Shown: positions 26,218 to 44,861 of the stretch, in pieces | Numbering within the stretch: the stretch's first letter is position 1 | Layout of the letters: the number at the start of each line of letters is the position of its first letter | NCBI GenBank assembly: GCA_965116905.1 | Contig: OZ220732.1 | Span: 288,001 to 352,000, forward strand | Reading direction: 5' to 3' | Source: Longimicrobiales bacterium | GTDB lineage: Bacteria; Gemmatimonadota; Gemmatimonadetes; Longimicrobiales; Gaopeijiaceae | Length of the DNA: 64,000 nucleotides | Notes under the pieces: generated by a model | Databases searched by the model: none | Told to the model about the DNA's origin: nothing | The model's input: only the letters and a program-made list of their open reading frames with translations | Position numbers and translations under genes: made by a program

Positions 26218-26219
26218 CG

Positions 26220-26861
26220 GTGGAGGCGAAGGAGTCCACGCAATCGCGCCCGCCGCGTGCGCGAAGCCCCGCCAACCCGAAGCGCCGGATCCTCCTCGCC
26301 AAGACTGCGATCTGGATCGTCGGTCTGGCCCCGCCCGTCTGGCTGACCACGGCCCTCTTCCGCCGCACGCTCGGGATCAACCCGATCGAGACGATCATCC
26401 TCGTCGAGGGGCGCTGGACCCTGGTCTTTCTGCTCGCGACGCTGGCCGTGACGCCCATCCGCCGCCTCACCGGCTGGAACCGGATCGTCCAGCTGCGGCG
26501 CCTGCTGGGACTGTTCGCCTTCTTCCACGCGTGCGTCCACTTCCTGTCGTACGTGGGGATCGACCACCTCTTCGCGCTCTCGATCATCGTCGAGGACGTC
26601 CTGGAGCGGCGTTACATCACGGCGGGCTTCACGGCGCTGGTCCTGCTGGTCCCGCTCGCGGTCACCTCCACGAAGGGATGGATCCGGCGCCTGGGCAAAC
26701 GCTGGCAGCGGCTGCACCGTCTATCCTACGTTGCGGCATCGCTGGGCGTCCTCCATTTCTACTGGAAGGTCAAGGCGGACACCTTCTGGCCGCTGGTGGC
26801 GGCGCTGACCCTGGCGGGACTGTTCGCGGTGCGGCTGGTGTACAGGAAGAAGAGACGTTGA
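26220..26861 (+). CDS. msrQ: heme-binding membrane subunit MsrQ
   Basis: LAVTP, RRLLGLFAF, PLAVTS, WQRLHRLSY, LHFYW; directly follows msrP. Confidence 0.95.
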   Translation: MEAKESTQSRPPRARSPANPKRRILLAKTAIWIVGLAPPVWLTTALFRRTLGINPIETIILVEGRWTLVFLLATLAVTPIRRLTGWNRIVQLRRLLGLFAFFHACVHFLSYVGIDHLFALSIIVEDVLERRYITAGFTALVLLVPLAVTSTKGWIRRLGKRWQRLHRLSYVAASLGVLHFYWKVKADTFWPLVAALTLAGLFAVRLVYRKKRR

Positions 26862-27814
26862 AACGAGGAAGCGCGAAGTTGGCACGTTCGACATGGCCCG
26901 AGCGGGCACGTCCGAGGTGGACCACCGCCGTGCTCTTCGGTGTGCCGCTCGCGGGCGGGATACTGACCGCGATGCTGGCCGCACTTCTGCCCGGAGGCCC
27001 GCCCGCGCCGGACCAGGACGGCCCCACCGAGCCCGAACTCGCCGCACCGGCCCCGGCGGCCCTCCCCCCGCCCCGCACGACCCGCTTCGTCGCCCCGCTG
27101 CCCGCCACCTTGGCCGCGAACGCCACGGTCGCCCTGGGTCCTCCCCAACGTCCCCCACCCGAGTGGCACGAGTTCTACTTCACGCGGGCGGCATACAGCA
27201 GCTACGGATGGGGACGCCGGTCGTGGTCCACCGACTATCCCAAGTCCGACCGCCAGTTCCTGACCGTCCTGCAGCGGCTCACCAACCTGGACGCCTTCAG
27301 CTACGAAAACGCGATCCTGCTAACCGACGAGAACATCCGCCGCTACCCCTTCCTCTACGCCCTCGAAGTGGGGTACATGAGTCTCTCGGCTGGCGAGATC
27401 GAGGGGCTCCGCGACTACCTCAAGGCAGGCGGGTTCCTGGTCATCGACGACTTCTGGGGCACGCGCGAGTGGGCCCAGTTCGAGTATCAGATGAGCCTCG
27501 TGTTTCCGAGTCATCCGATCATCGACCTGGAACTCGATCACCCGGTCTTCAACACCTTCTACGACATCGACGAGATCCTGCAGGTGCCCGCCTACGGGCG
27601 GTACTGGCGCGGCCGGACGAGCGAGCGCGACGGGTACGTGCCCTATGTGAAGGGGATTCTGGACGACGATGGCCGGCTGATGGTCATCATCAACTGGAAT
27701 ACCGACCTGGGCGACGCCTGGGAGTGGGCGGAACGCCCCGACTACCCGGTCCAGTACTCCACCTTCGCGTTCCAGATGGGCGTCAACATGATCATCTACG
27801 CGATGAGTCACTGA
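26858..27814 (+). CDS. DUF4159 domain protein (copy 1)
   Basis: WSTDYPKSD, YPFLY, LRDYLKAGGFLVIDDFWG, GRLMVIINWNTDLGDAWEW, MGVNMIIYAMSH. TTG start overlaps the msrQ stop. Confidence 0.88.
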   Translation: MKRGSAKLARSTWPERARPRWTTAVLFGVPLAGGILTAMLAALLPGGPPAPDQDGPTEPELAAPAPAALPPPRTTRFVAPLPATLAANATVALGPPQRPPPEWHEFYFTRAAYSSYGWGRRSWSTDYPKSDRQFLTVLQRLTNLDAFSYENAILLTDENIRRYPFLYALEVGYMSLSAGEIEGLRDYLKAGGFLVIDDFWGTREWAQFEYQMSLVFPSHPIIDLELDHPVFNTFYDIDEILQVPAYGRYWRGRTSERDGYVPYVKGILDDDGRLMVIINWNTDLGDAWEWAERPDYPVQYSTFAFQMGVNMIIYAMSH

Positions 27815-27841
27815 GTGATGAGTCACTGAGCATATGAGTAT

Positions 27842-30166
27842 ATGAGCAGCTTTTTCGAATTCCTCTTCAAATACCGGCCCGTGCTGTACCAGGAGGGCGA
27901 CTTCACCTTCCTGTCGCCGTGGCCGCTGGCGATCGCCGGTGCTCTGGCCGCGCTCCTGGCCGTGCCTGCGGTCCTCAGCTATACCCGCGCCCGCGCCAAG
28001 AGCAGCGCGACCGACCGCTGGGTACTGGGGGCGCTCCGCGGCGCCGCCTTCCTGCTCCTCTTCTTTATCGTGATGCAGCCGGCGCTCGTCCTGACCTCGG
28101 TCGTGCCCCAGCGGAACTTCCTGGCCGTCCTCGTCGACGACTCCCGCAGCATGACCATCGACGACCGCGACGGAACCTCGCGCGCCGACAAGGCTGCCGG
28201 GCTCCTCGACCCCGAAGGCGAGCTCGTCACCGCGCTGCACGACGACTTCGCGCTCCGCTATTTCCGCTTCTCGTCGGCGACCGCGCGGGTGGGGGGCGTG
28301 GACGCGCTCACGTACGACGGCAGCCAGACCCGGATCGGCGACGCGCTCGCCCAGGCCCGCGACGAACTGCAGGGTGTGCCGCTTTCCGGGATCGTGGTGG
28401 TCTCCGACGGAGGCGACAACACCGAAGAGGCCATCGGCGAGGCGCTGCTGCCGCTGCGGGCGGCGTCGGTCCCGGTCTTCACCGTGGGGTTGGGCGACGA
28501 CGAGATGGAGGCCGACGTGCAGACCAGCCGGGCGGACGTGCCGGGTCACGCGCTCACGGGCACGTCAATGGTTGTAAACGTCACGGTCGAGGCCCGGGGC
28601 TACGACGGACGCACGGTGCCGATCATCGTCGAGGACATGGGGCGCATCGTGACCAGCGAGGAGGTCGAGCTTCCCGACGACGGCCAGACCCTGGTCGCCC
28701 CGATCGCGATCACCCTGGAGACCGCCGGCGCGCGCGAGCTGACCTTCCGGATCCCCGGGCAGCCCGGCGAACGGGTGCTGCAGAACAACGAACTGCACAC
28801 GGTCGTCCAGGTGCGCGACCGCACCGAGAAGGTCCTGTACTTCGAGGGCGAGCCCCGCCACGAGGTCGCTTTCACGCTGCGCGCGATCCAGGCCGACGAG
28901 AACCTGCAGGTCGTACTCCTCCAGCGCACCGCCGAAAACAAGTTCTTCCGCCGCAACCTCGACGATCCGCTCGAGCTCGTCGAAGGCTTCCCCACCACCC
29001 GCGAGGAGCTCTACGGCTACCGCGCGCTCATCCTCGGATCCGTCGAGGCCAGCTTCTTCACCCACGACCAGCTCGACATGATCGCCGACTTCGTCTCCTC
29101 CCGGGGCGGCGCCCTGCTCATGCTGGGGGGCCGCCGGGCCTTCACCGAGGGGGGCTACAAGGGCACACCCCTCGAGGACGTCCTCCCGGTCGTGCTCGGC
29201 GAACCCACCGGGACCACGCCCACCGAGCGCCTCGCCTTCGTCAAGGTGGCGCCCACGCCCGCCGGCGCGAACCATCCCGTGACCCGGATCGACGGGTCGG
29301 TGGAGACGTCGGCCGCCCGCTGGGACTCGCTCCCGCCCGTGTCCACGACCAACATCCTGACCGGTTTGAAGGCGGGAGCCACCGAGTTGCTCAGCGGGAC
29401 CGTGGTGGAGGACCCCATGGCCGACGGGGCCGACGCGCAGTTCGCGGCCGACGAGAGCGACCGGGTCGTGATGGCGTTCCAGCGCTACGGCAAGGGGCGC
29501 GCGGTGGTGCTGGCGGTGCAGGACACGTGGCTGTGGCAGATGGACCACACCGTCGCGCTCGAAGACCAGAGCCACGAGAACTTCTGGAAGCAGCTGCTGA
29601 GATGGCTGGTCGCCGAGACCCCCGACCCCGTCGAGGCCGCCCCAACCCGCGAATCCGTCGAGGCCGGCGAGCCGGTGACCTTCGAGGCGACCGTTCTCGA
29701 CGAGGGCTTCGTCGAAGTGAACGGCGCCAGCGTGACCGCGCGCATCACCAATCCCGCCGGAGAGGCGCGCGAGCTGCCCATGGACTGGTCCGTCACCGAG
29801 GACGGCCGCTACAGCGCGACCTTCACCCCCGAAATGGACGGCATCTTCGAGGTGTCGGTGCACGCCGGCCGCGACACCCTGACCCTCGGTGAATCCGAGA
29901 CCGGCATCCGCGTGGCCCCCGGCCTCGAGGAGTTCCGCGACCCGCACCAGCGCCGCAGCCTCATGGAACGGATCGCCGACGAAACCGGCGGCCGCTACTA
30001 CACCCTCGAAACCGCCAACCGCCTGCCCGAGGACCTGCAGTTCACCGGCGGCGGCGTGACCGTCACAGAGGAAAGGGACCTGTGGGACATGCCAATCCTC
30101 TTCCTGTTGTTGGCGGGACTGCTGGGGGCCGAGTGGGGATACCGCCGGAAGCGGGGGATGGCGTGA
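27842..30166 (+). CDS. membrane-anchored vWA + glutamine-amidotransferase-like (DUF1355-type) domain protein
   Basis: N-terminal TM helices; MIDAS-like LVDDSRSM and VVSDG; GGALLMLGG, QRYGKGR, FWKQLLRWL; C-terminal TM then EWGYRRK. Confidence 0.8.
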   Translation: MSSFFEFLFKYRPVLYQEGDFTFLSPWPLAIAGALAALLAVPAVLSYTRARAKSSATDRWVLGALRGAAFLLLFFIVMQPALVLTSVVPQRNFLAVLVDDSRSMTIDDRDGTSRADKAAGLLDPEGELVTALHDDFALRYFRFSSATARVGGVDALTYDGSQTRIGDALAQARDELQGVPLSGIVVVSDGGDNTEEAIGEALLPLRAASVPVFTVGLGDDEMEADVQTSRADVPGHALTGTSMVVNVTVEARGYDGRTVPIIVEDMGRIVTSEEVELPDDGQTLVAPIAITLETAGARELTFRIPGQPGERVLQNNELHTVVQVRDRTEKVLYFEGEPRHEVAFTLRAIQADENLQVVLLQRTAENKFFRRNLDDPLELVEGFPTTREELYGYRALILGSVEASFFTHDQLDMIADFVSSRGGALLMLGGRRAFTEGGYKGTPLEDVLPVVLGEPTGTTPTERLAFVKVAPTPAGANHPVTRIDGSVETSAARWDSLPPVSTTNILTGLKAGATELLSGTVVEDPMADGADAQFAADESDRVVMAFQRYGKGRAVVLAVQDTWLWQMDHTVALEDQSHENFWKQLLRWLVAETPDPVEAAPTRESVEAGEPVTFEATVLDEGFVEVNGASVTARITNPAGEARELPMDWSVTEDGRYSATFTPEMDGIFEVSVHAGRDTLTLGESETGIRVAPGLEEFRDPHQRRSLMERIADETGGRYYTLETANRLPEDLQFTGGGVTVTEERDLWDMPILFLLLAGLLGAEWGYRRKRGMA

Positions 30167-31221
30167 AGGGGGGTGCGGCACACGCGCCGTGGCTGGCCGC
30201 CCTCCTGGCACGCGCTGCCGCCCTGGCACGCGCCGCCGCCCTCCTGGCCCTCGCCGCCCTCCTTCCGCCTGCCCTTCAGGCCCAGGACGCCCGGAACACC
30301 CACGTGCTCCTGATCTCGGGGCTCGGCGGCGATCCCGAATACACCGAGGCGTTTCACGGCTGGCTCAGCCGGTTCGCGGACGCGGCGACGGAGCAGCACG
30401 GCGTACCCGCCGCGAGGATCACGTACCTCGGCGAGACGACCGAACTCGACCCCACTCGGATCCGCGCACGCTCGACGGGTGACAACATCCGGGCGGTCTT
30501 CGCCGAGTTGGGCGGGTCAATGGCCCCGCGGGACGAACTCGTCGTTCTCCTGGCCGGCCACGGGACGTTCCGGGACGGGACCGCACGCTTCAACATCCCC
30601 GGACCGGATCTCACCCCGGACGAGTGGAACGCGATGCTGGCGAGCCTCGGCGACCGGCGGATCACCTTCGTCAACACGGCCAGCGCCTCGGGTCCGTTCA
30701 TCGAAGCGCTCTCGGGCCCGAACCGCACGATCATCACGGCCACGCGCAGCGGCCGCGAACGCAACCTGACCCGCTTCGGACTCCACTTCGTCGACGCGTT
30801 CGCCAACGAGGGCGCCGACGTGGACAGGGACGAGCGCATCTCGATGTTCGAGGCTTTCGGCTACGCCCTCCGCGAGGTCGAGCGCCAGTACGAGGGCGAC
30901 AACCAGTTGCTCACCGAGCACGCGATGCTCGACGACAACGGCGACGGTGAGGGAAGCCGCGAGCTCGACGACTTTGAAGGCGACGGCGCGCTGGCCCGGA
31001 CGGTGTTCCTGGGGTCCATCGGAGGCGCGGCGGGCGAAGCGGTCGGATCACCCGCGCTCAGGGCGCTGTACGAGGAGAAGGCCGAGATCGAGGCGCGGAT
31101 CGCGGAGCTGCGGCGGGTCAAGGCGCAGCTGCCGATCGCGCGCTACGAGGACGAACTGGAAGCGCTGCTCATCGAACTGGCGCTCAAGAACCGGGAGATC
31201 AGGGCGGCGGAGGGGAGCTGA
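30163..31221 (+). CDS. secreted caspase/C13-fold-like hypothetical protein with C-terminal coiled coil
   Basis: Signal peptide; LLISGLGG, LLAGHGT, NTASASG (Ser/Ala where a caspase Cys is expected), ITATRS, ADVDRDERIS. Confidence 0.7.
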   Translation: MKGGAAHAPWLAALLARAAALARAAALLALAALLPPALQAQDARNTHVLLISGLGGDPEYTEAFHGWLSRFADAATEQHGVPAARITYLGETTELDPTRIRARSTGDNIRAVFAELGGSMAPRDELVVLLAGHGTFRDGTARFNIPGPDLTPDEWNAMLASLGDRRITFVNTASASGPFIEALSGPNRTIITATRSGRERNLTRFGLHFVDAFANEGADVDRDERISMFEAFGYALREVERQYEGDNQLLTEHAMLDDNGDGEGSRELDDFEGDGALARTVFLGSIGGAAGEAVGSPALRALYEEKAEIEARIAELRRVKAQLPIARYEDELEALLIELALKNREIRAAEGS

Positions 31222-31353
31222 GGGGAAGCTGACGGGTGAGTGCGGACGGCGGACGGTGGGTCGCGGACGGGCTGTGGGCGCGGGCGGGCGGGCGCGTCGG
31301 CGGGCGGGCGCGTCCAGCGGGCGGGCGCGTCGGCGGGCGGGCGCCCATACGAG

Positions 31354-31390
31354 CATGCCTGTGTCCCGGGATTTGCCGCGGAAACGTGGG
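31354..31390 (+). repeat. left inverted repeat
   Basis: catgcctgtgtcccgggatttgccgcggaaacgtggg. Confidence 0.92.
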
Positions 31391-31773
31391 GGGGGCGAGC
31401 CCAGGAGCTGTGGTGCCGTACGCCGATGCCCGGCGCTGGCCTGAGGCGAGGCAGTCGGCCCGCCCGTGCGCATCTCTCCGGCCTCCAACGCCACGCCGCT
31501 GTCCCAAACCACCGAAACACAGGCCGATCCTGCTATAGACGGGTTTTGAAACGGCGGTTTCGGCGAGGTCCGGGACCCGCTGGCGGATGACCCCCAGGAG
31601 CCACCGGCGGCCCGCTGGCGGGCGATCGGGCATCGGCGACCCTTCCACGTCATCCCGACCCGAGATCGTGCGTCCTGGGCCATCACAGAGGGCCGGAAAT
31701 CGGCCGTTATCTTTCAGGTGCGCGGAAGCACGATTCACATAAGCCGTTGCCGGACTTGAACCTGGAGGATCAC

Positions 31774-33258
31774 ATGAACACCACGCAACTCGGAGAACGG
31801 ATCGCCGAACTCGCCGCCCGGATCAACATCGCCACCCACGAGATGCTCACCCTCGTCGCCGAGTTCGACCGCCGCGAGGGATGGGCCGACGCCTTCGACT
31901 CCTGCGCCGAGTGGCTCGCCTGGCGGACCGGACGCACGGTCGCCACCTGCCGCGAGAACGTGCGCGTCGCGCATGCGCTCGAGGACCTGCCCGCCACCTC
32001 GGCCGAGATGAAGGCCGGGCGCCTCTCCTACGCCAAGGCGCGGGCCATCACCCGGGTGGCCACGCCCCGGACCGAGGCCGAACTCCTCGACTACGCCCGC
32101 AAGGGCTCGGCCGCGGCGGTGGAGCGCATGGTGCGGGGGGTGAAGCACCTGTCGCGCGACGGCGAGATCGGGGCCGAAGAGGCCCGGCACCGGGCCCGCA
32201 CGTTGTCGGTCGTCATCGCCGCGGACGGGACGTACGTGGTGCGGGGCCGGCTCGAGCCCGAGGCGGGGGCCGTGCTGATGCGGGCCATCGAGGCCGCGAG
32301 CGACGCGCTGTACCGGGGCGAGGACCCCGATGCGCGGCCACGGAGCCGCCAGCGCAGGGCCGATGCGATGGGGCTCGTCGCCGAGCGGGCGCTGGCGGCG
32401 GGGCTGGGAGCGGGGGCCGATGCGAGAGAGGAGGCCGACGCGGGGGAAGCGATCGCGGAAGCGACGCCGAGCGGGACGCGGGCCGAGCGGTACCAGGTGA
32501 CGGTGCACACCGAGATGGCCACGCTGGAGGAGGGCGGCGAGGGGGGCCGGTCGGAGCTCGACGGGGTGCGGGTGAGCGCCGAGACCTCGCGGCGCATGGC
32601 GTGCGATGCGTCGCTGGTGGGGATGCTGCACCGGGAGGGCAAGGTCGTCAGCGTGGGGCGGAAGACGCGGACCATCCCGCCGCACCTCCGCCGGGCGCTC
32701 GAGGAACGGGACCGGGGCTGCCGGTACCCGGCCTGCGGGAGCCGGTTCACCGAGGCGCATCATGTCCGGCACTGGGCCGACGGCGGCGAGACGAGTCTGG
32801 CGAACACGGTGCTGCTCTGCCGGCGGCACCACCGGCTCGTGCACGAGGGCAGGGTCCGGATGGCGCTCGACCGGCACGGCCGGGCGGTGTTCTTCGCGCG
32901 CAGCGGGGCGGCGGTCGCGAGGTGGGCGAGGCGGGCGGCGAGCCAGACAAGGCGGTGGAGCAGGCCGGCGAGCCAGGCGATGCGGTGGAGCAGGCCGGCA
33001 GGGCCGACCGCAGAACCGACCGCCGACGCGAGGACACCCCGCCACCCGCCCAGGCCGCCTGAGTCCCGCGTTTCCGCGGCAAATCCAGGGACACAGGCAT
33101 GTCGGGATGGGACGGGCTGGGGTCAACGGGACAGCCGAAACAACCGGACAGGCCGGGAAAGCCGGCGTGCGACTACCCGGGCCGGCAAGGCACCGTGGGC
33201 GGGTCCCCTCGCGCGGCCTCGATCGGCTCGAGGGGAATCAACTCCACCCGCCCCTTGA
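31774..33258 (+). CDS. DUF222 domain / HNH endonuclease (REP13E12-like family)
   Basis: GGAGG before ATG; EFDRREGW..SCAEWLAWRTG, GRLSYAKARAITR, RRMACDA, RDRGCRYPAC..AHHVRHWADGGETSLANTVLLCRRHHRLVHEG. The low-complexity tail runs through the right inverted repeat. Confidence 0.92.
   Translation: MNTTQLGERIAELAARINIATHEMLTLVAEFDRREGWADAFDSCAEWLAWRTGRTVATCRENVRVAHALEDLPATSAEMKAGRLSYAKARAITRVATPRTEAELLDYARKGSAAAVERMVRGVKHLSRDGEIGAEEARHRARTLSVVIAADGTYVVRGRLEPEAGAVLMRAIEAASDALYRGEDPDARPRSRQRRADAMGLVAERALAAGLGAGADAREEADAGEAIAEATPSGTRAERYQVTVHTEMATLEEGGEGGRSELDGVRVSAETSRRMACDASLVGMLHREGKVVSVGRKTRTIPPHLRRALEERDRGCRYPACGSRFTEAHHVRHWADGGETSLANTVLLCRRHHRLVHEGRVRMALDRHGRAVFFARSGAAVARWARRAASQTRRWSRPASQAMRWSRPAGPTAEPTADARTPRHPPRPPESRVSAANPGTQACRDGTGWGQRDSRNNRTGRESRRATTRAGKAPWAGPLARPRSARGESTPPAP
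33065..33101 (-). repeat. right inverted repeat
   Basis: Reverse complement is catgcctgtgtccctggatttgccgcggaaacgcggg. Confidence 0.92.
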
Positions 33259-33401
33259 ACGGAAGCGCCTGCATTCTCTGGCCGGGCGTCAGTTCGAGCC
33301 GACTGGACGACCACAAGCCGGCCACGCCCCGTGCGAGGGCCCGACCGACCTCCGAGCGCCCCCACATTGGCAACCACGGGCCGACCGTTACACCTTTGGG
33401 C

Positions 33402-36194
33402 ATGACCCATGCCCCGACTCCGGACCGCGGGCACATCCCCCGGTTGACGCCGATCAGGCGGATCGTGTTTCTCGCGCTGCTCTGGCTGGGCGCCGGCGCG
33501 GGCGCGGCCACTCCGTTCGCCGCCGCCACAGCCCAGGAGGCCGCCGGCCTCGCCGGCCTCCGCGCGGGCCGGTACGACGAAGCCGTGCGCACACTCCGCC
33601 CGCAGGCACTCGGCGGCAATGGCCCCGCGCTGGCTGGATGGGTGACCACCCTCCGCGAGACCGGCGACTACGCGGGTGCGGTTCGGGCCGCCGAGCAGGG
33701 CGTGGAACGGGACGTCGCGGGCGCGCATGCACTCCTCGGCGCCGCCCTGCTGGACCTCGGCCGAGTCCCCGACGCCCGCGCCGCGCTCGAAACCGGTGCC
33801 GCCGACCCCGGCGAGTCCGGGGCGCTCGCGCGCGTTGAACTGGGCATCCTCGAATACGACTACGGCGACCGCGACCGCGCCCGCGGCATCTTCGACGGCT
33901 TCATCGACTACTACAACAGCGCCGCCAGCCGCACGGCGGCCGAAATCACGACGGCAGAACTCACGGCTGTCGGGCGCGCGCTCGTCCACCTCTCGCGCTG
34001 GAACTACGAGTACGCCCACGACGCCCTCACCGCCCTGGACGAAGCCATCGCGGCCGGCCCGCTCGACCACGCGGCGCAACTCACCGTCGGCGAACTCTTC
34101 CTGGAGCGCTACGACGCGAGACAGGCCGCCGAGGCCTTTCAGCAGGTGCTCTCCGAACATCCCGCGCACCCGCGCGCCCTCCTCGGACTGGCCCGAGTGG
34201 CAAGGCTGGAAGGCGGCGGCAGCCCGGCGGCCGCGCTGGAGGCTGCCCTGGAAACAAACCCGGATCTGGCGGAAGCGCGCATCCTGCTGGCCCGCATCCG
34301 TCTGCTGGGCGGGAGCCGGGACCAGGCGCTGGAGCAGGTCGACCGGGTGCTCGACGTGAATCCGGCGCACCTGGAGGCCCTGGGCACGAAGGCCGCGATC
34401 CTCCACCTGGCGCGAGACGACGCGGGACTGCGCACCGTGATGGACCGCATCGGCGCACTGACCGACGCCCCTACCGCGGCGCTCGTCGTCCTTTCGGAAC
34501 TCTCCGCCGACCACCGCAAGTACGAGGACGCGCTGGACTTCGCCCGCCAGGCCGCCAACGCCGACCCCGCCAGCTGGACGGCGTGGGGTCTCATGGGGCT
34601 CAACCAGGTCCGCCTGGGCAGGGTCGACGAGGGGCGGACCAACCTCGAGCGGGCGTTCGCCGGCGATCCCTTCAACCTCTGGTTCAAGAACACGCTCGAC
34701 CTCCTGGACACCTTCCCCGAATACCGCGTCGTCGAGACGCCGCACTTCCGCCTCGTGCTGCACGAATCCGAGGCCGATCTGCTGGCGCCGTACATGGAAG
34801 CGGTGGCGGAACGGGCGTATGCAGAGATGTCGCGGCGGTACGGTTACGCCCCTGAAGAACCCATCCGCGTCGAGGTCTATCCGCGCCACGCCGACTTCTC
34901 CGTGCGCACCGTCGGACTGGTCGGCATCGGGGCGCTCGGCGTGAGCTTCGGGCCCGCGCTCGCCATAGACTCGCCGACTGCGCGAACGCGGGGGGACTTC
35001 AACTGGGCTTCGACGCTGTGGCACGAGATCGCGCACTCCTTCCACATCGCCGTGTCCGACAGCGAGGTGCCGCGCTGGTTCTCGGAGGGGCTGGCGGTAC
35101 ACGAGCAGCGCAAGGCCGACATCGAGGGTCAGGGCTGGGGTCACCAGGCGGGCGTGAGCTTCGTCCGTTCACTGGCGGCGGGCGAGCTGCGCCCGGTCAG
35201 CGAGCTGGACAGGGGGTTTTCGAGCCCGCGGCATCCCGGCGAGGTGGGCGACAGCTACTACCAGTCGTCGCTGGTGTTCGAGCTGATCGAGGAGCGGCAC
35301 GGCTTCGGCGCCATCGTGGACATGCTGCGGGCATACCGCGACGGCGCTTCCAACGAAGAGGTGTTCGAACGCGCCCTGGGCGTGCGTCTGGAGGACTTCG
35401 ACGCCGACTTCGAGGACTTCCTGCAGGAGCGTTTCTCGGCGGCGATCGCCTCGGTGGGGAGCGATGGCGGAGAGGGAAGCGAGATGATCGCGCCGGCCAA
35501 CCCGCTGGCGGTCCTCGACATTGCGACCCTCGAGGCCGCGGTGGCGCGCGATCCGGGCCGCTTCGTGCCCCGCATGACCCTCGGGCAGGCCCTCTTCCGC
35601 GATGGCCGCAGGGCCGATGCGGCGGAGCACTTCGAGGCCGCGCTCGAGCTGTTCCCCCAGTACGGCGGCCCCGACGGCGCGCACTGGTTCCTGGGGCGCA
35701 TCCGGGAGGAGCAGGGTGACGCGGACGCCGCGATCGCGCACTACCGGGCCCTCCTCGCGCTCAACGAGAGCCACTACGACGCGCGGCTCGCGCTCGGGGG
35801 CTTGCTCGCGGGGAACGCCGGCGGCGCAGGGGACACGCGGCACGCGGGGGACGCGGGCGGCGCGGGGAACGCGGGAGACATCACGGCCGCGGCCGAGGTG
35901 CTTCGGGAGCTGGCGCATATTCACCCTTACGAGATCGAGGACCACGAGCGCCTGGCCGCGCTCCTGGAGAGGATCGGCGACCTCGAGGGCGCGGTGGCGG
36001 AGCGCAGGGCCGTCGTCGCGCTGGACCCCGTCGACCTGGCGTCGGCGCACTTCCGACTGGCCCGCGTGCTGCACAGCAGCGGCGACGCCGCCGCCGCCCG
36101 CAGCGCCGTCCTCGCGGCGCTGGAGATCGCGCCCAACTACGAGGAGGCGCTCGATCTGCTGCTGGAGCTTCGGCGCGGGAGCCCCGGGCGATGA
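33402..36194 (+). CDS. TPR-repeat protein with central peptidase MA-like (gluzincin) domain, exported
   Basis: Signal peptide; many TPR-like helices; WHEIAH followed by PRWFSEGLA. Confidence 0.88.
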   Translation: MTHAPTPDRGHIPRLTPIRRIVFLALLWLGAGAGAATPFAAATAQEAAGLAGLRAGRYDEAVRTLRPQALGGNGPALAGWVTTLRETGDYAGAVRAAEQGVERDVAGAHALLGAALLDLGRVPDARAALETGAADPGESGALARVELGILEYDYGDRDRARGIFDGFIDYYNSAASRTAAEITTAELTAVGRALVHLSRWNYEYAHDALTALDEAIAAGPLDHAAQLTVGELFLERYDARQAAEAFQQVLSEHPAHPRALLGLARVARLEGGGSPAAALEAALETNPDLAEARILLARIRLLGGSRDQALEQVDRVLDVNPAHLEALGTKAAILHLARDDAGLRTVMDRIGALTDAPTAALVVLSELSADHRKYEDALDFARQAANADPASWTAWGLMGLNQVRLGRVDEGRTNLERAFAGDPFNLWFKNTLDLLDTFPEYRVVETPHFRLVLHESEADLLAPYMEAVAERAYAEMSRRYGYAPEEPIRVEVYPRHADFSVRTVGLVGIGALGVSFGPALAIDSPTARTRGDFNWASTLWHEIAHSFHIAVSDSEVPRWFSEGLAVHEQRKADIEGQGWGHQAGVSFVRSLAAGELRPVSELDRGFSSPRHPGEVGDSYYQSSLVFELIEERHGFGAIVDMLRAYRDGASNEEVFERALGVRLEDFDADFEDFLQERFSAAIASVGSDGGEGSEMIAPANPLAVLDIATLEAAVARDPGRFVPRMTLGQALFRDGRRADAAEHFEAALELFPQYGGPDGAHWFLGRIREEQGDADAAIAHYRALLALNESHYDARLALGGLLAGNAGGAGDTRHAGDAGGAGNAGDITAAAEVLRELAHIHPYEIEDHERLAALLERIGDLEGAVAERRAVVALDPVDLASAHFRLARVLHSSGDAAAARSAVLAALEIAPNYEEALDLLLELRRGSPGR

Positions 36195-36210
36195 GCCGGG
36201 AGGTCGGGCG

Positions 36211-37041: not shown

Positions 37042-37189
37042 CCGTGGCGATGCCGCACTCCGCTTCGGCTGTCCGGTGTCCGCCGCACCGATTACGTTTG
37101 TTTCCCACGGCACCGCGCCGACGGGCGCGTCCGTCCACGGAGCACGGACGGTCAGCCGCGACTGATCCCACCTACACCATCCGCTGCCC

Positions 37190-38218
37190 GTGAACGAGAC
37201 CCTGCAAGCCGCACCCGAACCCCAGGCCGACGTGGCCCTCGCCCGCCGCATCCAGGAAGGACGCAAGAAGATCCTCTCCGAGGTCCGCAAGGTCATTGTC
37301 GGACAGGACGAGGCGGTCGACCAGGTCCTGCTGACCCTTTTCGTGGGGGGCAACAGCCTGATCGTGGGCGTGCCCGGACTGGCCAAGACACTGCTGATAC
37401 ACACGATCGCGCAGGTGCTGGACCTGGATTTCTCGCGCATTCAGTTCACGCCGGACCTCATGCCGTCCGACATCACCGGGACGGACATCATCCAGCAGCG
37501 CGAGGACGGCAGCCGGGGACTTGAATTCGCCGCGGGACCGATCTTCGCCAACGTCGTCCTGGCCGACGAGATCAACCGTACGCCGCCGAAGACCCAGGCG
37601 GCGCTCCTGGAGGCCATGCAGGAACACCGCGTCACCGTGCAGGCCAACACCTACGAGCTGGATCCTCCGTTTTACGTCTTCGCCACGCAGAACCCGATCG
37701 AGCTCGAGGGGACCTACCCGCTGCCCGAGGCGCAGCTGGACCGTTTCATGTTCCACATCCGCATGGACCACCTGGAAGAGGACGAGGAGATGGAGGTCGT
37801 GCGGGAGACCACCGACGAGGTCGAACCGGAGCTGGGGGCGGTGGTGTCGAAGGCCGACATGATCGCCTTCCAGGAGCTGGTGCGGCGCGTGCCGGTGGCC
37901 GAGCCCGTGATGCGCTACGCGGTGAACCTCGTGCGGGCGAGCCGGCCGAATCCGAACGGGAGTCACGACTTCGTGAAGAAGTGGGTGTCCTACGGGGCCA
38001 GCGTGCGCGCGGCCCAGTACCTGATCCTGGGCGGGAAGGCGCGCGCGCTCACCGAGGGTCGCCTCACGGTCAGCTTCGACGACATCCGGGCCCTGGCGCT
38101 GCCGGTGATGCGTCACCGGATCCTGACCAACTTCCACGCCGAATCCGAAGGGCGCACGACCGAAGAGCTGGTTGCGAGGCTCCTCGAAGCGGTTCCGGTT
38201 CCGCAATCCGGAATGTAG
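37190..38218 (+). CDS. moxR: MoxR family AAA+ ATPase
   Basis: GVPGLAKT, RIQFTPDLMPSDITG, LADEINRTPPKTQAALLEAMQE, ATQNPIELEGTYPLPEAQLDRF. Confidence 0.97.
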   Translation: MNETLQAAPEPQADVALARRIQEGRKKILSEVRKVIVGQDEAVDQVLLTLFVGGNSLIVGVPGLAKTLLIHTIAQVLDLDFSRIQFTPDLMPSDITGTDIIQQREDGSRGLEFAAGPIFANVVLADEINRTPPKTQAALLEAMQEHRVTVQANTYELDPPFYVFATQNPIELEGTYPLPEAQLDRFMFHIRMDHLEEDEEMEVVRETTDEVEPELGAVVSKADMIAFQELVRRVPVAEPVMRYAVNLVRASRPNPNGSHDFVKKWVSYGASVRAAQYLILGGKARALTEGRLTVSFDDIRALALPVMRHRILTNFHAESEGRTTEELVARLLEAVPVPQSGM

Positions 38219-38228
38219 GGAGGGCCGC

Positions 38229-39137
38229 GTGACCGCCTCGCCCGCGTCCAGGGCGTCCTTCCTGGACCCCGACGTCCTGGCGAGAATCGACAACCTGGAG
38301 CTGCTCGCACGGACCGTCGTGGACGGGTTTCTGCAGGGGATCCACCGCTCCCCCTACCTGGGCGTGAGCATGGACTTCGCGGAGCACCGGCCGTACATGC
38401 CGGGCGACGACATCCGGAAGATCGACTGGCGGCTCTATGCCCGCACCGACCGGTTCTACATCAAGCAGTTCGAGGCGGAGACGAACGCCGACGTAGGCTT
38501 CCTCCTCGACGTCTCGGCCTCGATGGGGTACGGCTCCGGCGAGACGAGCAAGCTCGACTACGGACGCTTCCTGACCGCCAGCCTCGCGTACTTTTCTGCT
38601 GGCCAGAAGGACCGCGTGGGACTGTATGCGTTCGACGACGACGTGGTGGAGCACGTCCGGCCCTCGGCGGCACACCTGGACAAGGTCCTCTACGCCGTGG
38701 CGCGGGTGAAGGCGGAGCGGGAGGGAAGCTGGGACAAGCCGCTCGCACGGGTCGCGAACACCTTTCGGCGGCGCGGCATTATGGTCGTGATTTCGGATTT
38801 CTACGCCGACCCCGACGAGATCTCGGCGACTCTGGGGTTCTTCCAGGCCCAGGGGCACGACGTGGTGGCGTTCCACGTGCTCGATCCCGCGGAGATCGAT
38901 TTCCCGTTTGCGCAGGCCTCCAACTTCCAGGACCTCGAGACGCGCGAAGTCCTGCAGGTGGTGCCCGAGAAGTTCGTCGAGGCCTACCGCGGCCATGTGC
39001 GCGCACACATCGAGGAACTGGGCAGGGGCTTCGGACGGCACGGGGTGGACTACGTCCTCCTCAACTCGGGGAAGCCCCTGGACGAGGCGCTCTACGCGTA
39101 CCTCACGTTCCGGCAGAAGTCGACCAGGGTCCGCTAG
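38229..39137 (+). CDS. DUF58 domain protein (vWA-like MoxR partner)
   Basis: G.HRS..G.SMDFAEHRPYMPGDDIRKIDW, LDVSASM, VISDF. Confidence 0.95.
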   Translation: MTASPASRASFLDPDVLARIDNLELLARTVVDGFLQGIHRSPYLGVSMDFAEHRPYMPGDDIRKIDWRLYARTDRFYIKQFEAETNADVGFLLDVSASMGYGSGETSKLDYGRFLTASLAYFSAGQKDRVGLYAFDDDVVEHVRPSAAHLDKVLYAVARVKAEREGSWDKPLARVANTFRRRGIMVVISDFYADPDEISATLGFFQAQGHDVVAFHVLDPAEIDFPFAQASNFQDLETREVLQVVPEKFVEAYRGHVRAHIEELGRGFGRHGVDYVLLNSGKPLDEALYAYLTFRQKSTRVR

Positions 39138-39143
39138 CCGCCC

Positions 39144-41258: not shown

Positions 41259-41288
41259 GCGATTCCGTGACAGACTGAAGGGGGGAAC

Positions 41289-44200
41289 ATGTCCATAGCG
41301 GACAACTGGCGCTCCAGAGACCAGATCCTGCGCGTCGTGCGGCGCGTCCGGCGCCGGTGGCGCCTCAAGCTCATCCTGCGGGGCCTTGCCCTGACCATCG
41401 CCGGGGCGCTGGTCACTTTCCTGGTCTCGGCGTCCAGTCTCGAATTCCTGCGCTTTCAGCCGGAAGCCGTGACCGCGTTTCGAATCGTCCTGTGGCTGGT
41501 TGTCGGCTTCTTCCTTGTTCGCTGGGTGCTTTGGCCCCTGTTGCGGCGCATCTCCGATGAGAGGGTCGCACTGTACCTGGAGGAGAACGAACCCTCCCTG
41601 CAGGCCCGTGTCCTGGCTGCCGTGGAGTCGGCCGGCAACGCCGACGAACTGGAGCGCTCGCCCCTCCTTCAGGAGGTCGTGAAGCGCGCGGTGAAGGAAT
41701 GCCGACGCATCGACTATGGCAGCCGTATCGAGCAGCAATCCCTCCGTCGCTCCGCGGGAGCGCTCGGCGGCCTCACGCTGGCGTCGGTGGCCGTCCTTCT
41801 CCTTGGCCCGGGCTTTCTTCGCCACGGCATGTCGGCCCTGCTCTTCCCGAACCGCTCGGCAGAGTCCGTCAACCCGTACAGCGTCGCGGTGACGCCCGGC
41901 GACACCACCATCTCACGCAACTCCGACCTCCTCGTCTCGGCTATCCTGCACGGCTTCGCCTCGGACGATGTCGTGCTCTACACCCGGGAGACGGGTGCCA
42001 ACGGCTTCGTCGACACGCCCATGATCGAGGACGGCGCGGGTGCGTTCGAGGGGCTGCTCCTGAACGTTGCCGAAGAGACCACGTATTATGTCGAGGCCAA
42101 CGGCGTCCGGTCCGGGACCTTCACCCTGGGCGTCGCCGACCTACCGGCGGTGGACCGGCTGGCGATGGTGTATCACTTCCCGCGCTACACGGGCCTGGCG
42201 CCGCGCCGGTTCGAATACGGCGGAGACGTGGCGGCCCTCGCCGGGACCCGGGTCGAGCTCGAGGTGACCTCCACGATCCCCTCGCCCGGCGCCCTGATCG
42301 TGATGGACGCGGGCGACACGATTGCCATGGAAGCCGGGCCGGAGGGCACCTTCGGCGGGGCGTTCACCGTGCGCGACGAAGGGTTCTACGGCATCCGCCT
42401 CCAGACGCACGATGGCGCATGGGTCACGGGCGCGCCGGACTACCGGATCGACGTGCTCACGGACCAGGGGCCGTCGATCTCGTTCAGCAAGCCGGGACGC
42501 GACACCGACGTCAGCGCCATCGAGGAGGTGTTCATCGAGGCGCGCGCCGACGACGATCTGGGCGTGGCGGACGTGCGGCTGGTCTACAGCGTGAACGGCG
42601 GGCCCTCCGACACCGTGCGGCTGTACGCCTCCGGGGGAGCGCCCGTCACCGAGTTGACGGCGAGTCACACGCTCTTCCTGGAGGACTTCGAGCTGGAGAC
42701 CGGCGACCTCGTGGCCTACCACGGGATCGCGCGCGACAACGCGCCTGCGCCGCGCGAGGCCATGACCGACATCTTTTTCCTGAAGGTGCGGCCGTTCCGC
42801 CGTGACTTCCGGGAAGCCGAGGGCGGGGGCGGCGGCGGCGGTGGTGGCGGCGGCGGCGGCATGGACCAGGACCTGTCGGCCATCCAGCGCCAGATCATCG
42901 CGGCCTCGTTCAACCTCGTGCGGGACCGCGACAGCTATTCGCCGGACGTGTGGGAAGAGAACGTCGTCAGCGTCGCCCTCAACCAGGAGCGGCTGCGGGA
43001 GCAGGTGCAGACGCTGCGGCAGCGGATCGTGAACCGCGGCATCGCGGGGGCGGACGAGACGTTCGAGCGGATCGCCGAGACCCTGCCGATTGCGGTTGAA
43101 TCGATGTCCGAAGCCATCGACTCGCTGCGGGCACTGAACCCCGCGGGCGCGATCGCCGCCGAGCAGCGCGGGCTCCGCCAGCTCCAGAAGGCCGAGGAGA
43201 CGTACGAGCGCTTCGTATCGATGGAGAGGCAGCAGGGCGGCGGCGGTGGCGGTGGCCAGCAGGGCCCCAGCGCCGAGGACCTCGCCGACCTGTTCGAGCT
43301 GGAGACCGACGCACTTCGCAACCAGTATGAAACCGTCCAGCGAAGCCAGCAGGAAAGCGCCGACCAGGGTGTCGACGAGGCCCTCGAGAAGCTCCGCGAA
43401 CTGGCCAGGCGCCAGGAACAGGAGCTGGAACGCCAGCGGCTCAGGGCGTCGGCCCAGCAGGGCGGCGGTGGCGGCGGGAGCCAGGCTGCCCGGGACCTCG
43501 CGGACGAGGCCGAAGAGGCGGCGCGCCAACTGGAGCGGCTGTCACGAGAGACGGGCGACCGCCAGCTGGAAGAGGTCGCGCGCGGGCTGCAGCAGGCGGC
43601 CGACGCGATGCGCCGGTCCGCGGCGAACCGCGGGAATACCGGTGTGACGGAGGCTCGTTCGGCCCTCGAGCGGCTGCGCGACGCGCGGGACCGCCTGGAA
43701 GGAGTGCAGGACGACCGCCTGGAACGGGATCTGGCGGACGCGCGCGAGCGCGTGGCGGGCCTGTCCCGCCAGCAGGAGGATGTCCAGAATCGCATGGCTG
43801 CCATGCGGCGGGCGGGGCGTCCTTCCGCCGACCAGGTCGGGCGGATCAATCAGACCAAGGAAGAAATGGCCGAAGAGGTGGGCGACCTGCTGTCCCAATT
43901 GGATCAGCTCGGCGCCAGCGCGAGGCGGGACGGCACGGCGGGCGCCAGGGAGCTGGAAGAAGCCGCCGAGACGATCCGCGAGACCCAGTTGCGGGAACGG
44001 ATCCTCTGGTCGCGCAGCCTGGTGGGACGTCAGGGCCAGGAGGAATACGCCGAGGCGTTCGAGGACCAGAATGCGCAAGCCATTCAGTCGCTTGCGAACC
44101 GGCTGGAAGAAGCCGCCGATGCCGTTGGCGACCGGGTCACCGAAGACCTGGCGACCGAGGCGCTCGAGTCGGCGCGGGACCTGATGCGAAGCCTGGAGTC

Positions 44201-44861
44201 GTTGGAGCGCCGCACGCAAAACGATGCGCGCGGTGGCGAGGGCAACCCCCAGGAAGGTGAGGGCAACCCCCAGGAAGGCCAGGCCAACGCCCAGGAAGGC
44301 CAGGGTGGCGAGCAGCAGGGCGAGCGTGGCGGGGGTAATCCCGGCGAGCGCGCAGGCGATCCGGGAACCCGGCAAGGGGACCCGGGAGCTCGCACCGGTG
44401 CCCCCGGACCGAGGGACTACGACGACCGTGTCGGCGCGGGAGGGCCACGCCAGTTCGACCCCGACGCGATCCGGCAAATGCGCCGGGAGATCCGCGAGCG
44501 CGCCGGCGACGCGCGGGCACTGGCGGGTCTGGTCGAGCGCGCGGGCGCGGACCCCCGCGAACTGCAGGCCATGATCGACGCAATGCGCATGCTCGACCGC
44601 CAGGGCACCTACGCCGACACGGAAGAAGTACTGCGTCTTCAGAGCGAGCTGGTGCAGACGATCAAGCAGCTCGAGTTCCGTCTGCGGCGTGAGTTCGCCG
44701 CCGGCGACGAGGAGCGGATCTTCCTGTACCAGTCCGGAGACGTCCCCGAGGAATACCGCGCCCTGGTCGAGGAATACTATCGTGCACTGTCGCGCGACGA
44801 GGGCAGCCGGGCGCGTGACGGCGCGAACCGGGGAGGCAACCCCGGAAACAATCGGCCGTGA
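41289..44861 (+). CDS. large membrane protein with Ig-like middle and long Gln/Glu-rich coiled coil (DUF4175-like)
   Basis: N-terminal TM helices; P.YTGL, D..P.I.F..PGRD, ARADDDLGV; Gly/Gln linkers; C-terminal VPEEYRALVEEYYRAL. Confidence 0.82.
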   Translation: MSIADNWRSRDQILRVVRRVRRRWRLKLILRGLALTIAGALVTFLVSASSLEFLRFQPEAVTAFRIVLWLVVGFFLVRWVLWPLLRRISDERVALYLEENEPSLQARVLAAVESAGNADELERSPLLQEVVKRAVKECRRIDYGSRIEQQSLRRSAGALGGLTLASVAVLLLGPGFLRHGMSALLFPNRSAESVNPYSVAVTPGDTTISRNSDLLVSAILHGFASDDVVLYTRETGANGFVDTPMIEDGAGAFEGLLLNVAEETTYYVEANGVRSGTFTLGVADLPAVDRLAMVYHFPRYTGLAPRRFEYGGDVAALAGTRVELEVTSTIPSPGALIVMDAGDTIAMEAGPEGTFGGAFTVRDEGFYGIRLQTHDGAWVTGAPDYRIDVLTDQGPSISFSKPGRDTDVSAIEEVFIEARADDDLGVADVRLVYSVNGGPSDTVRLYASGGAPVTELTASHTLFLEDFELETGDLVAYHGIARDNAPAPREAMTDIFFLKVRPFRRDFREAEGGGGGGGGGGGGGMDQDLSAIQRQIIAASFNLVRDRDSYSPDVWEENVVSVALNQERLREQVQTLRQRIVNRGIAGADETFERIAETLPIAVESMSEAIDSLRALNPAGAIAAEQRGLRQLQKAEETYERFVSMERQQGGGGGGGQQGPSAEDLADLFELETDALRNQYETVQRSQQESADQGVDEALEKLRELARRQEQELERQRLRASAQQGGGGGGSQAARDLADEAEEAARQLERLSRETGDRQLEEVARGLQQAADAMRRSAANRGNTGVTEARSALERLRDARDRLEGVQDDRLERDLADARERVAGLSRQQEDVQNRMAAMRRAGRPSADQVGRINQTKEEMAEEVGDLLSQLDQLGASARRDGTAGARELEEAAETIRETQLRERILWSRSLVGRQGQEEYAEAFEDQNAQAIQSLANRLEEAADAVGDRVTEDLATEALESARDLMRSLESLERRTQNDARGGEGNPQEGEGNPQEGQANAQEGQGGEQQGERGGGNPGERAGDPGTRQGDPGARTGAPGPRDYDDRVGAGGPRQFDPDAIRQMRREIRERAGDARALAGLVERAGADPRELQAMIDAMRMLDRQGTYADTEEVLRLQSELVQTIKQLEFRLRREFAAGDEERIFLYQSGDVPEEYRALVEEYYRALSRDEGSRARDGANRGGNPGNNRP

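What the first reader, a model, noticed from the sequence alone, without database searches (positions are those of the whole stretch)
26858..44861. Uncharacterised nine-gene MoxR-vWA envelope system with two DUF4159 paralogues, a TPR-gluzincin and a giant coiled-coil protein
Seen: co-oriented and largely coupled genes in the order DUF4159, vWA-GATase-like membrane protein, caspase-fold protein lacking the Cys, TPR-HExxH peptidase, DUF4159, MoxR, DUF58, BatA-vWA, 1190-aa TM-Ig-coiled-coil. Most have signal peptides or TM anchors while MoxR and DUF58 look cytoplasmic. Known: MoxR with vWA partners act as chaperone or metal-insertion systems (Bat, RavA-ViaA). To my knowledge no function is assigned to this DUF4159-containing subtype. 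Inference: a trans-envelope assembly or quality-control machine coupling cytoplasmic ATP hydrolysis to periplasmic proteolysis or scaffolding.
Basis: partly seen in the sequence, partly recalled or inferred. Interest (0 to 1): 0.7.

Follow-up and report, generated by a model that had tools for sequence, protein, structure and literature searches.

The report
Enlarged MoxR-VWA envelope machine, unstudied version
This gene cluster, conserved in many Gemmatimonadota and Acidobacteriota, likely builds an ATP-driven inner-membrane machine that matures or clears exported proteins; it is likely an enlarged, unstudied version of a Rhizobium envelope operon whose mechanism is still unexplained.

Summary
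All nine genes are real and co-oriented. The conserved core is eight genes; the upstream DUF4159 is optional. Three marker genes travel together: 56-57 of 151 Gemmatimonadota and 28-29 of 121 Acidobacteriota genomes, the same genomes each time. The ATPase motifs, three MIDAS sites and the zinc-peptidase motif are intact across homologues. The caspase-fold protein is a pseudo-metacaspase (0 of 150 distant homologues have the Cys). Five of the components match a four-gene proteobacterial operon (MoxR, DUF58, BatA-DUF4159 fusion, VWA-GATase), which is likely the Rhizobium cmd operon. An unlinked DUF4175 gene occurs in all 28 sampled genomes that carry the fusion. Best reading: cytoplasmic MoxR/DUF58 drives a membrane complex whose periplasmic VWA pair remodels exported clients. 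Coupling and client are inferred, not shown, and no client gene lies nearby. I found no paper on this version (10 searches). The scan has reported the same system before on other genomes. New variant of a known kind.

The parts
26858..27814 (+). D1: DUF4159 protein with an N-terminal hydrophobic segment; optional member
   Evidence: PF13709 E 1.6e-45; homologue with solved structure 4i66, E 1e-8; no Cys; adjacent in 11 of 20 fetched Gemmatimonadota clusters
27842..30166 (+). VG: 774 aa, two N-terminal TMs, VWA with MIDAS (D99-x-S-x-S, T163, D189), GATase1-like domain without Cys, C-terminal TM with basic tail; paralogue of B
   Evidence: MIDAS D-S-S-[T/S]-D in 39 of 40 rows, 1 gap; B profile hits VG at E 4e-14; directly upstream of C in 78 of 80 loci
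30163..31221 (+). C: predicted-exported pseudo-metacaspase (clan CD fold) with invariant His133, Ser174 at the catalytic Cys position, conserved acidic loops and a C-terminal helical hairpin
   Evidence: model pLDDT 88.6; Z 21.2 to metacaspase-4, 20.9 to legumain, 19.4 to PIG-K; register from profile alignment to metacaspase-4; of 150 representatives His 150, nucleophile position Ser 123, Pro 14, Ala 9, Thr 2, Asn 2, Cys 0
31344..33111 (+). Inserted mobile element bounded by 47-nt inverted repeats (31344-31390, 33065-33111); its DUF222-HNH ORF (31747-33258) runs past the right repeat; not part of the system
   Evidence: other copies 91-95% identical in DNA elsewhere in the genome, 96-99.7% in protein
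33402..36194 (+). T: predicted-exported TPR - gluzincin zinc peptidase - TPR (H541-E-x-x-H545, E562)
   Evidence: H-E-H-E in 39 of 39 rows; PF13485 E 1.5e-5, below cut-off; only a non-significant PDB match (4gaa, E 0.44)
36211..37041 (+). D2: predicted-exported DUF4159, the core copy
   Evidence: PF13709 E 3.3e-43; present in 19 of 20 fetched Gemmatimonadota clusters; DUF4159 is fused to the BatA protein in the four-gene operon
37190..38218 (+). M: MoxR AAA+ ATPase, Walker A K66 and Walker B D126/E127
   Evidence: PF07726 E 3e-61; K-D-E in 40 of 40 rows; cluster MoxRs form a clade, 96/91
38229..39137 (+). DUF58 VWA-fold adaptor, predicted cytoplasmic, MIDAS D94-x-S-x-S and D190
   Evidence: PF01882 E 2e-47; D-S-S-D in 41 of 41 rows; no hydrophobic segment
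39144..41258 (+). B: BatA double-TM anchor with a basic loop (conserved H22, F34, F39), VWA with MIDAS (D99, T166, D194), C-terminal TM
   Evidence: PF07584, TIGR02226; D-S-S-T-D in 38 of 40 rows; loop conservation
41289..44861 (+). G: DUF4175-like giant; three TMs with a helical domain (about 90-140, conserved E98/E99) predicted cytoplasmic, three Ig-like domains, long helical bundles, Gln/Gly linker, conserved C-terminal helix
   Evidence: PF13779 E 3.5e-11; model pLDDT 82, pTM 0.47; tandem-Ig matches only; E98 and E99 each in 38 of 41 rows; Atlas clusters named DUF4175

Best explanation
These co-inherited genes likely encode one inner-membrane machine in which a cytoplasmic MoxR ATPase and its DUF58 adaptor would pull on a membrane complex, so that periplasm-facing VWA domains remodel, mature or hand over exported proteins. 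Shown: gene set, co-inheritance of three markers, intact motifs, folds of C and G, homology to the four-gene proteobacterial operon. Inferred steps: (1) MoxR hexamer plus DUF58 act in the cytoplasm as NorQ/NorD do. (2) The DUF58 MIDAS grips an acidic residue on the cytoplasmic face of the complex; the best candidate is E98/E99 of G just after its second TM, with the conserved BatA loop as a second anchor. (3) Motion passes through the TMs to the paralogous pair B and VG, whose two intact MIDAS sites hold acidic loops of a client. (4) DUF4159 is a non-catalytic subunit bound to B, and G is a rod-like periplasmic scaffold. (5) The add-ons of this version are C, a catalytically dead peptide-binding adaptor, and T, a zinc peptidase that trims or degrades clients. 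The client is not identified.
For: Co-inheritance: C and T in the same 57 of 151 Gemmatimonadota genomes, G in 56 of them; C and T in the same 28 of 121 Acidobacteriota, G in those plus one. All three lie within 16 kb in 48 of 51 and 23 of 25 genomes where they share a contig (for three genomes with two copies I used the copy that has T). Motifs are conserved. The topology of a BatA-type protein with a periplasmic VWA domain was measured for Borrelia BB0173 (PMC5700661, abstract). NorD uses its MIDAS to bind D220/E222 on the cytoplasmic face of a membrane client (PMC9976466, passages; PMC13036017, passages). MxaR, S, A, C, K and L are all needed for Ca2+ loading of a periplasmic enzyme (PMC12276312, passages). 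G E98 aligns to E or D in the 3 of 7 distant giants that the profile aligned over that stretch. BatA-DUF4159 is one protein in the four-gene operon. In a Rhodobacter CenR table both a TIGR02302 gene and a MoxR gene are listed as envelope-regulator targets (PMC9275681, table passages).
Against: No physical interaction is demonstrated by any search. No client gene is conserved beside the cluster in 86 loci: the three largest non-core ORF clusters, judged by one representative each, lie antisense over core genes, and the rest occur in at most 6 loci, unlike mxa where the client is adjacent. Four of 7 distant giants did not align at E98. In the four-gene operon the BatA protein has no DxSxS in 3 of 3 copies examined, so a periplasmic MIDAS on B is not universal. 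The Caulobacter control has DUF4159 but gave no DUF4175 hit. Paralogous clusters without T exist, so T is not needed in every copy. Leptospira bat deletions showed no phenotype (PMC3557215, passages). Topologies rest on hydropathy and charge, not on a dedicated predictor.
Confidence: 0.45

Rival explanations
1. A dedicated metal-insertion system of the Mxa type: the machine loads a metal into one periplasmic enzyme, either the zinc peptidase T itself or an unlinked metalloenzyme.
For: The one MoxR/VWA set with a periplasmic client that I read about does this. T is the only protein of the cluster with an intact catalytic motif besides MoxR, and T and C were found in exactly the same genomes of both samples.
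Against: The four-gene relatives lack a C orthologue (full-length hit only in the seed genome of 151). Copies without T persist. No conserved neighbouring enzyme. A 1190-aa rod is hard to explain for one client.
Confidence: 0.2
2. A structural envelope tether or scaffold: G, B, VG and DUF4159 form a static inner-membrane-to-wall or outer-membrane link, and MoxR/DUF58 only assembles or disassembles it.
For: G is modelled as three Ig domains plus long helical bundles. DUF4159, VG and C lack catalytic Cys. Rhizobium mutants have morphology and envelope-integrity defects.
Against: No outer-membrane or wall-binding family was detected in any of the nine proteins. The system is missing from 94 of 151 sampled genomes of the phylum, though most carry a sister DUF4159 system. 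An intact peptidase and invariant MIDAS sites point to turnover of ligands.
Confidence: 0.2
3. C is an active serine variant (PIG-K-like transamidase or ligase) that attaches or cyclises exported proteins, with the rest of the complex presenting substrates.
For: His is invariant (150 of 150) and Ser fills the Cys position in 123 of 150; the next-but-one Ser is present in 149 of 150. PIG-K and plant peptide ligases are among the top fold matches.
Against: Pro, Ala or Asn at the nucleophile position in 25 of 150. The acidic residue two positions before the Cys in metacaspase-4 is Thr or Ala in most homologues.
Confidence: 0.07
4. An outside-in sensing or anti-phage conflict system in which periplasmic domains trigger MoxR or the peptidase.
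For: Patchy all-or-none distribution, also within genera; a caspase fold; toxin-antitoxin and mobile genes gather at the C|T junction in close relatives.
Against: No PADLOC hit for any of nine proteins at E 1e-5. Fixed gene content without variable effectors. The caspase fold lacks its Cys. The junction insertions are nearly confined to one lineage (gap over 300 nt in 20 of 26 close relatives against 2 of 32 others).
Confidence: 0.06

Closest known systems
Rhizobium leguminosarum RL3499-RL3502 (cmdA-D) type operon
   Same: Five anonymous proteobacterial loci carry MoxR - DUF58 - BatA/DUF4159 fusion - GATase1-like membrane protein. Window profiles hit them: B E 6e-28 to 1e-13, VG E 1e-35 to 2e-22 (Pfam). 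Their MoxRs group with the window's MoxR apart from the genome's own Bat MoxR. That these loci are the cmd operon is from recall and earlier scan notes; the primary paper was not held.
   Different: Here DUF4159 is a separate protein (often two), the DUF4175 giant is inside the operon, both membrane VWA domains keep a MIDAS, and C and T are added. No full-length C outside the seed genome in 151 Pseudomonadota.
Bacteroides/spirochaete Bat operon (MoxR-DUF58-BatA-BatB-BatC-BatD-BatE)
   Same: MoxR, DUF58, a BatA double-TM anchor and a pair of paralogous membrane VWA proteins, plus TPR proteins.
   Different: No BatD domain in the cluster. The same genome has a separate canonical Bat operon (L087) whose MoxR is 46% identical and falls elsewhere in the tree.
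MxaR/S/A/C/K/L calcium-insertion system of methanol dehydrogenase
   Same: A MoxR ATPase with three VWA proteins is needed to mature a periplasmic enzyme. That MxaS is a DUF58 protein is recalled, not tested.
   Different: No adjacent client enzyme; DUF4159, DUF4175, GATase-like domains, C and T were not part of the mxa set described in the passages read.
NorQ/NorD (and CbbQ/CbbO) MoxR-VWA motors
   Same: Intact Walker and MIDAS motifs; model for MIDAS-to-acidic-residue gripping of a membrane client.
   Different: Different MoxR subfamily (CGN); two-component and cytoplasmic, with no periplasmic subunits.
Sister DUF4159/giant system of the same genome (L085, L089, L090)
   Same: Homologous DUF4159, giant (E 4e-35), BatA (E 1e-55), DUF58 and MoxR; DUF4159 found in 144 of 151 genomes of the phylum.
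   Different: Scattered over three loci, no C or T homologue among its seven tested proteins; itself uncharacterised.

Membership tests
MoxR AAA+ / VWA systems | AAA_3 ATPase with intact Walker A and B | tested here: met
   PF07726 E 3e-61; K66, D126, E127 in 40 of 40 rows
MoxR AAA+ / VWA systems | Adjacent VWA partner with MIDAS (DxSxS-T-D) | tested here: met
   Full motif in VG and B; DxSxS and D in DUF58, whose Thr position was not assigned
MoxR-proper (MRP) subfamily | Phylogenetic placement with named MRP references | tested here: inconclusive
   Tree of 24 unnamed rows, no named reference sequence included; DUF58/BatA context fits, from recall
cmd (RL3499-RL3502) type operon | MoxR, DUF58, BatA-anchored protein, DUF4159 domain and GATase1-like membrane protein all present | tested here: met
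   Profile homology to five four-gene loci; identity of those loci with cmd is recalled
cmd (RL3499-RL3502) type operon | Four-gene layout with BatA-DUF4159 fused | tested here: not met
   DUF4159 is free-standing and the cluster has eight or nine genes
cmd (RL3499-RL3502) type operon | Envelope and morphology defect on loss | not testable with these tools
   Needs a mutant
Canonical Bat operon | BatD (PF13584) with BatC/BatE TPR genes after BatA-BatB | tested here: not met
   No PF13584 in the nine proteins; present in the separate operon L087
Mxa-type metal insertase | Dedicated periplasmic client enzyme encoded alongside | tested here: inconclusive
   No conserved non-core neighbour in 86 loci with limited flanks; T itself or an unlinked client is not excluded
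Clan CD cysteine peptidases (C13/C14), protein C | Caspase-haemoglobinase fold | tested here: met
   Z 21.2, rmsd 2.8, 212 aligned to 6w8r
Clan CD cysteine peptidases (C13/C14), protein C | His-Cys catalytic dyad | tested here: not met
   His 150 of 150, Cys 0 of 150 at the aligned position
Gluzincin (clan MA) peptidases, protein T | HExxH plus downstream Glu ligand | tested here: met
   39 of 39 rows; Pfam MA_2 score below cut-off
Gluzincin (clan MA) peptidases, protein T | Zinc binding and proteolysis | not testable with these tools
   Needs an assay
Class I glutamine amidotransferases (DUF4159 and VG domains) | Nucleophile Cys | tested here: not met
   No Cys in D1, D2 or VG of the window; no column with Cys above 30% in D1 or D2 alignments. 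Clan link is structural (PMC4702930, passage)
Known anti-phage systems | PADLOC protein model match | tested here: not met
   0 of 9 proteins at E 1e-5; the library dates from 2023

The most novel reading that the evidence does not exclude
MoxR/DUF58 plus a DUF4175 giant plus a BatA-type VWA pair form a general trans-inner-membrane motor: a way of delivering cytoplasmic ATP work to the periplasm without a transporter or a proton-driven TonB/Tol system. DUF58 grips a conserved cytoplasmic acid of the giant (E98/E99). This locus is the most complete single-operon form, with its own pseudo-caspase adaptor and protease, and the unlinked TIGR02302/DUF4175 gene is the missing subunit of the Rhizobium cmd system.
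Probability: 0.3. Interest if true: 0.8.

Novelty: new variant of a known kind. Interest (0 to 1): 0.5.

Why it matters
MoxR operons with DUF58 and BatA-type proteins (cmd, Bat, Mxa) give envelope, stress or enzyme-maturation phenotypes, yet how a cytoplasmic ATPase acts on periplasmic VWA domains is unexplained in the papers I read. This version gathers the parts in one operon, keeps every motif intact, and has a cultured carrier: Gemmatirosa kalamazoonensis KBS708 plasmid 1 holds the eight-gene core. It gives two cheap tests in model bacteria: whether the unlinked DUF4175 gene acts with the cmd-type operon, and whether its cytoplasmic acidic residue is the DUF58 ligand. The score is held down because the kind of system is known, the mechanism is inferred, and the scan has reported this cluster several times.

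Tried and rejected
Complex prediction of DUF58 with the BatA anchor (residues 1-82): no verdict, score 0.16 against a mark of 0.32; not used for or against binding. Expression: the one RNA run holding the stretch gave contigs with flat depth like the two runs of unrecorded kind, so it shows no transcription. An apparent G-DUF4159 fusion in L128 was rejected because the linking stretch reads like an off-frame read-through; two apparent C-T fusions (P0226, P0235) were rejected for the same reason. The promoter and terminator scan gave nothing above shuffles. PDB sequence searches gave only generic coiled-coil or low-complexity matches for G, weak matches for VG and none significant for T. msrPQ adjacency is limited to Longimicrobiales-level relatives and was rejected as part of the system. 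Plasmid searches found no four-gene operon with names. The Rhizobium paper was not held. The Kaur et al. conflict-system paper has none of five terms searched (PMC7159879). In one search the HNH ORF was given on the wrong strand; searches used the right one. Presence-absence was tested for three of nine genes only, kin are not independent, and the 40 fetched clusters were chosen for having C and G close together, so they overstate synteny.
Full report
Observation. The nine ORFs lie on the + strand in the stated order. Family scans confirm two DUF4159 proteins, a VWA/GATase1-like membrane protein (VG), a TPR protein with a sub-threshold Peptidase_MA_2 match (T), MoxR, DUF58, a BatA-VWA protein (B) and a DUF4175-like giant (G); the third protein (C) has no Pfam or NCBIfam match. 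The element has at least three more copies in the genome, so it is a recent insertion. Named relatives at up to 94% identity place the window in Longimicrobiales, Gemmatimonadota.

Conservation. In 80 loci found with C, VG is directly upstream in 78. In an even sample of 151 Gemmatimonadota genomes (own genome included), strong hits to C and to the T peptidase domain fall in the same 57 genomes, and G in 56 of them; 5 weak C hits and 8 weak G hits were set aside as other families. In 121 Acidobacteriota (seed included), C and T fall in the same 28 and G in those plus one; 2 weak T hits were set aside. All three lie within 16 kb in 48 of 51 and 23 of 25 genomes where they share a contig. The pattern is patchy inside families and some genera, which implies repeated joint gain or loss, but kin are not independent and only three markers were profiled. 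Forty fetched stretches, chosen for close C and G, show a core of VG, C, T, one DUF4159, MoxR, DUF58, B and G. The upstream DUF4159 is optional, a permuted order exists (L120, L129, L131, L132), and some Acidobacteriota have copies without T while T lies elsewhere in the genome. Gemmatirosa kalamazoonensis plasmid 1 carries the eight-gene core. The C|T junction is an insertion hot spot in close relatives: a gap over 300 nt in 20 of 26 against 2 of 32 in others, filled with toxin-antitoxin pairs, transposases or HNH elements, and three genomes of the genus have the halves 21-152 kb apart. This suggests two separable transcription units in this lineage (inference).

Anatomy. MoxR Walker residues are invariant in 40 rows; MIDAS residues are conserved in VG, B and DUF58; T keeps H-E-x-x-H and the third ligand Glu in 39 of 39. 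B and VG are paralogues. By hydropathy and charge each has two N-terminal TMs with a basic loop, a VWA domain outside, and a C-terminal TM, matching the measured topology of Borrelia BB0173 (PMC5700661, abstract). C folds like metacaspases, legumain and PIG-K. Its profile aligns Ser174 with the catalytic Cys of metacaspase-4; among 150 representatives below 50% mutual identity none has Cys there and 25 have Pro, Ala or Asn, while His133 is invariant. It is best read as a pseudo-enzyme. G is modelled as three TMs enclosing a helical domain, three Ig-like domains and long helical bundles; pTM 0.47 leaves the overall shape open. E98 and E99, predicted cytoplasmic, are each kept in 38 of 41 rows, and E98 aligns to E or D in the three of seven distant giants that aligned there. 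D1, D2 and VG have no Cys, so their GATase-like folds are probably not amidotransferases.

Relation to other systems. The genome also has a canonical Bat operon, a MoxR-DUF58-RDD locus and a scattered sister DUF4159/giant system, so the cluster is an accessory paralogue, not the Bat orthologue. In 151 Pseudomonadota genomes, 28 of 32 DUF4159 hits lie in frames of 918 aa or more. Five of these were fetched and are MoxR - DUF58 - BatA-type protein with C-terminal DUF4159 - VG homologue (Pfam on two of them). From recall and earlier scan notes this is the Rhizobium cmd layout; the primary paper was not held, and I saw only its title and others' statements that RL3499 is an MRP-type MoxR needed for membrane integrity and morphology. 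All 28 genomes also carry DUF4175 (29 hits in all), unlinked in the five checked. Against generality, these are probably close kin and the Caulobacter control has DUF4159 without a DUF4175 hit. A full-length C was found only in the seed genome; T was not searched in that phylum. In a 24-row tree the cluster MoxRs form a clade (96/91) that sits with the sister-system and four-gene MoxRs, apart from the genome's Bat and RDD MoxRs; with only two outside rows and a midpoint root this is modest evidence.

Mechanism. MoxR motors act through a VWA adaptor whose MIDAS binds acidic surface residues of a client, as for NorD on NorB D220/E222 (PMC9976466 and PMC13036017, passages). MxaR with three VWA proteins is needed for Ca2+ loading of a periplasmic enzyme, by an unresolved route (PMC12276312, passages). 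I therefore favour a motor in the cytoplasm (MoxR + DUF58) gripping the cytoplasmic face of a B/VG/G membrane complex, with work delivered to clients held by the two periplasmic MIDAS sites, DUF4159 as a subunit on B, C as a peptide-binding adaptor and T as the trimming or disposal protease (0.45). None of these contacts is shown. Rivals: a dedicated metal insertase (0.2), a static tether that MoxR only assembles (0.2), an active Ser-type transamidase role for C (0.07), a defence or sensing system (0.06). No conserved client gene was found next to the cluster in 86 loci, and no protein matches PADLOC.

Literature. Ten full-text searches found no description of this cluster. DUF4159 occurs in one paper, as an unconnected member of a Pfam clan. 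Most subscription papers and all supplements were outside what I read, so a naming elsewhere is not excluded. Papers were seen as passages or abstracts, none as whole text. Earlier scan notes describe the same system in other genomes and reached a similar reading. The additions here are the genome-level co-inheritance counts, the fusion and unlinked-DUF4175 evidence, the residue census of C, the E98/E99 candidate and the mobile-element interruption.

Verdict. Real, conserved, uncharacterised in this form; a new variant of the MoxR-DUF58-BatA envelope systems. Interest 0.5.

Noticed in passing
window 31344-33111; genome C1 near 4178600, 1011000-1013100, 633600-638250: Multi-copy DUF222-HNH element of about 1.8 kb with 37-47 nt terminal inverted repeats; one copy appears split by a further insertion; two more distant copies at 43-44% protein identity.
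   Followed up: partly
L005-L036, L047, downstream of gene C: The C|T junction collects unrelated cargo in close Longimicrobiales: PIN/MazE-type pairs, IS110 transposase, DUF222-HNH, AAA_21 ATPases, Vsr, helicases.
   Followed up: partly
L085 4862-12022, L090 7009-9913, L089 7064-8101: Sister system in the same genome: DUF4159 - 1117-aa giant - 590-aa and 443-aa proteins without Pfam match, with DUF58-BatA and MoxR at other loci.
   Followed up: partly
L086 9811-10677: A fourth, lone DUF4159 (39% to D1) between DUF3179 and DUF1326, near a PpoB2 copper-chaperone gene.
   Followed up: no
window 25294-26861: An msrP/msrQ-like pair (molybdopterin oxidoreductase and ferric-reductase-like membrane protein; names recalled) overlaps D1 by 4 nt; in another genus of the family msrP lies on the far side of G instead.
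   Followed up: partly
L144, L145, L147: A further layout in Pseudomonadota: free DUF4159 - MoxR - DUF58 - short BatA protein - 750-aa DUF4175-like protein.
   Followed up: partly
L092 (Planctomyces sp. SH-PL62 plasmid pPL62-3): MoxR - DUF58 - BatA - VG homologue - G homologue cluster on an 81-kb plasmid, DUF58 apparently frameshifted.
   Followed up: partly
window 44858-45676: AHSA1/SRPBCC gene overlapping the end of G by 4 nt; it did not appear in the 40 fetched clusters, whose flanks beyond G are short.
   Followed up: no
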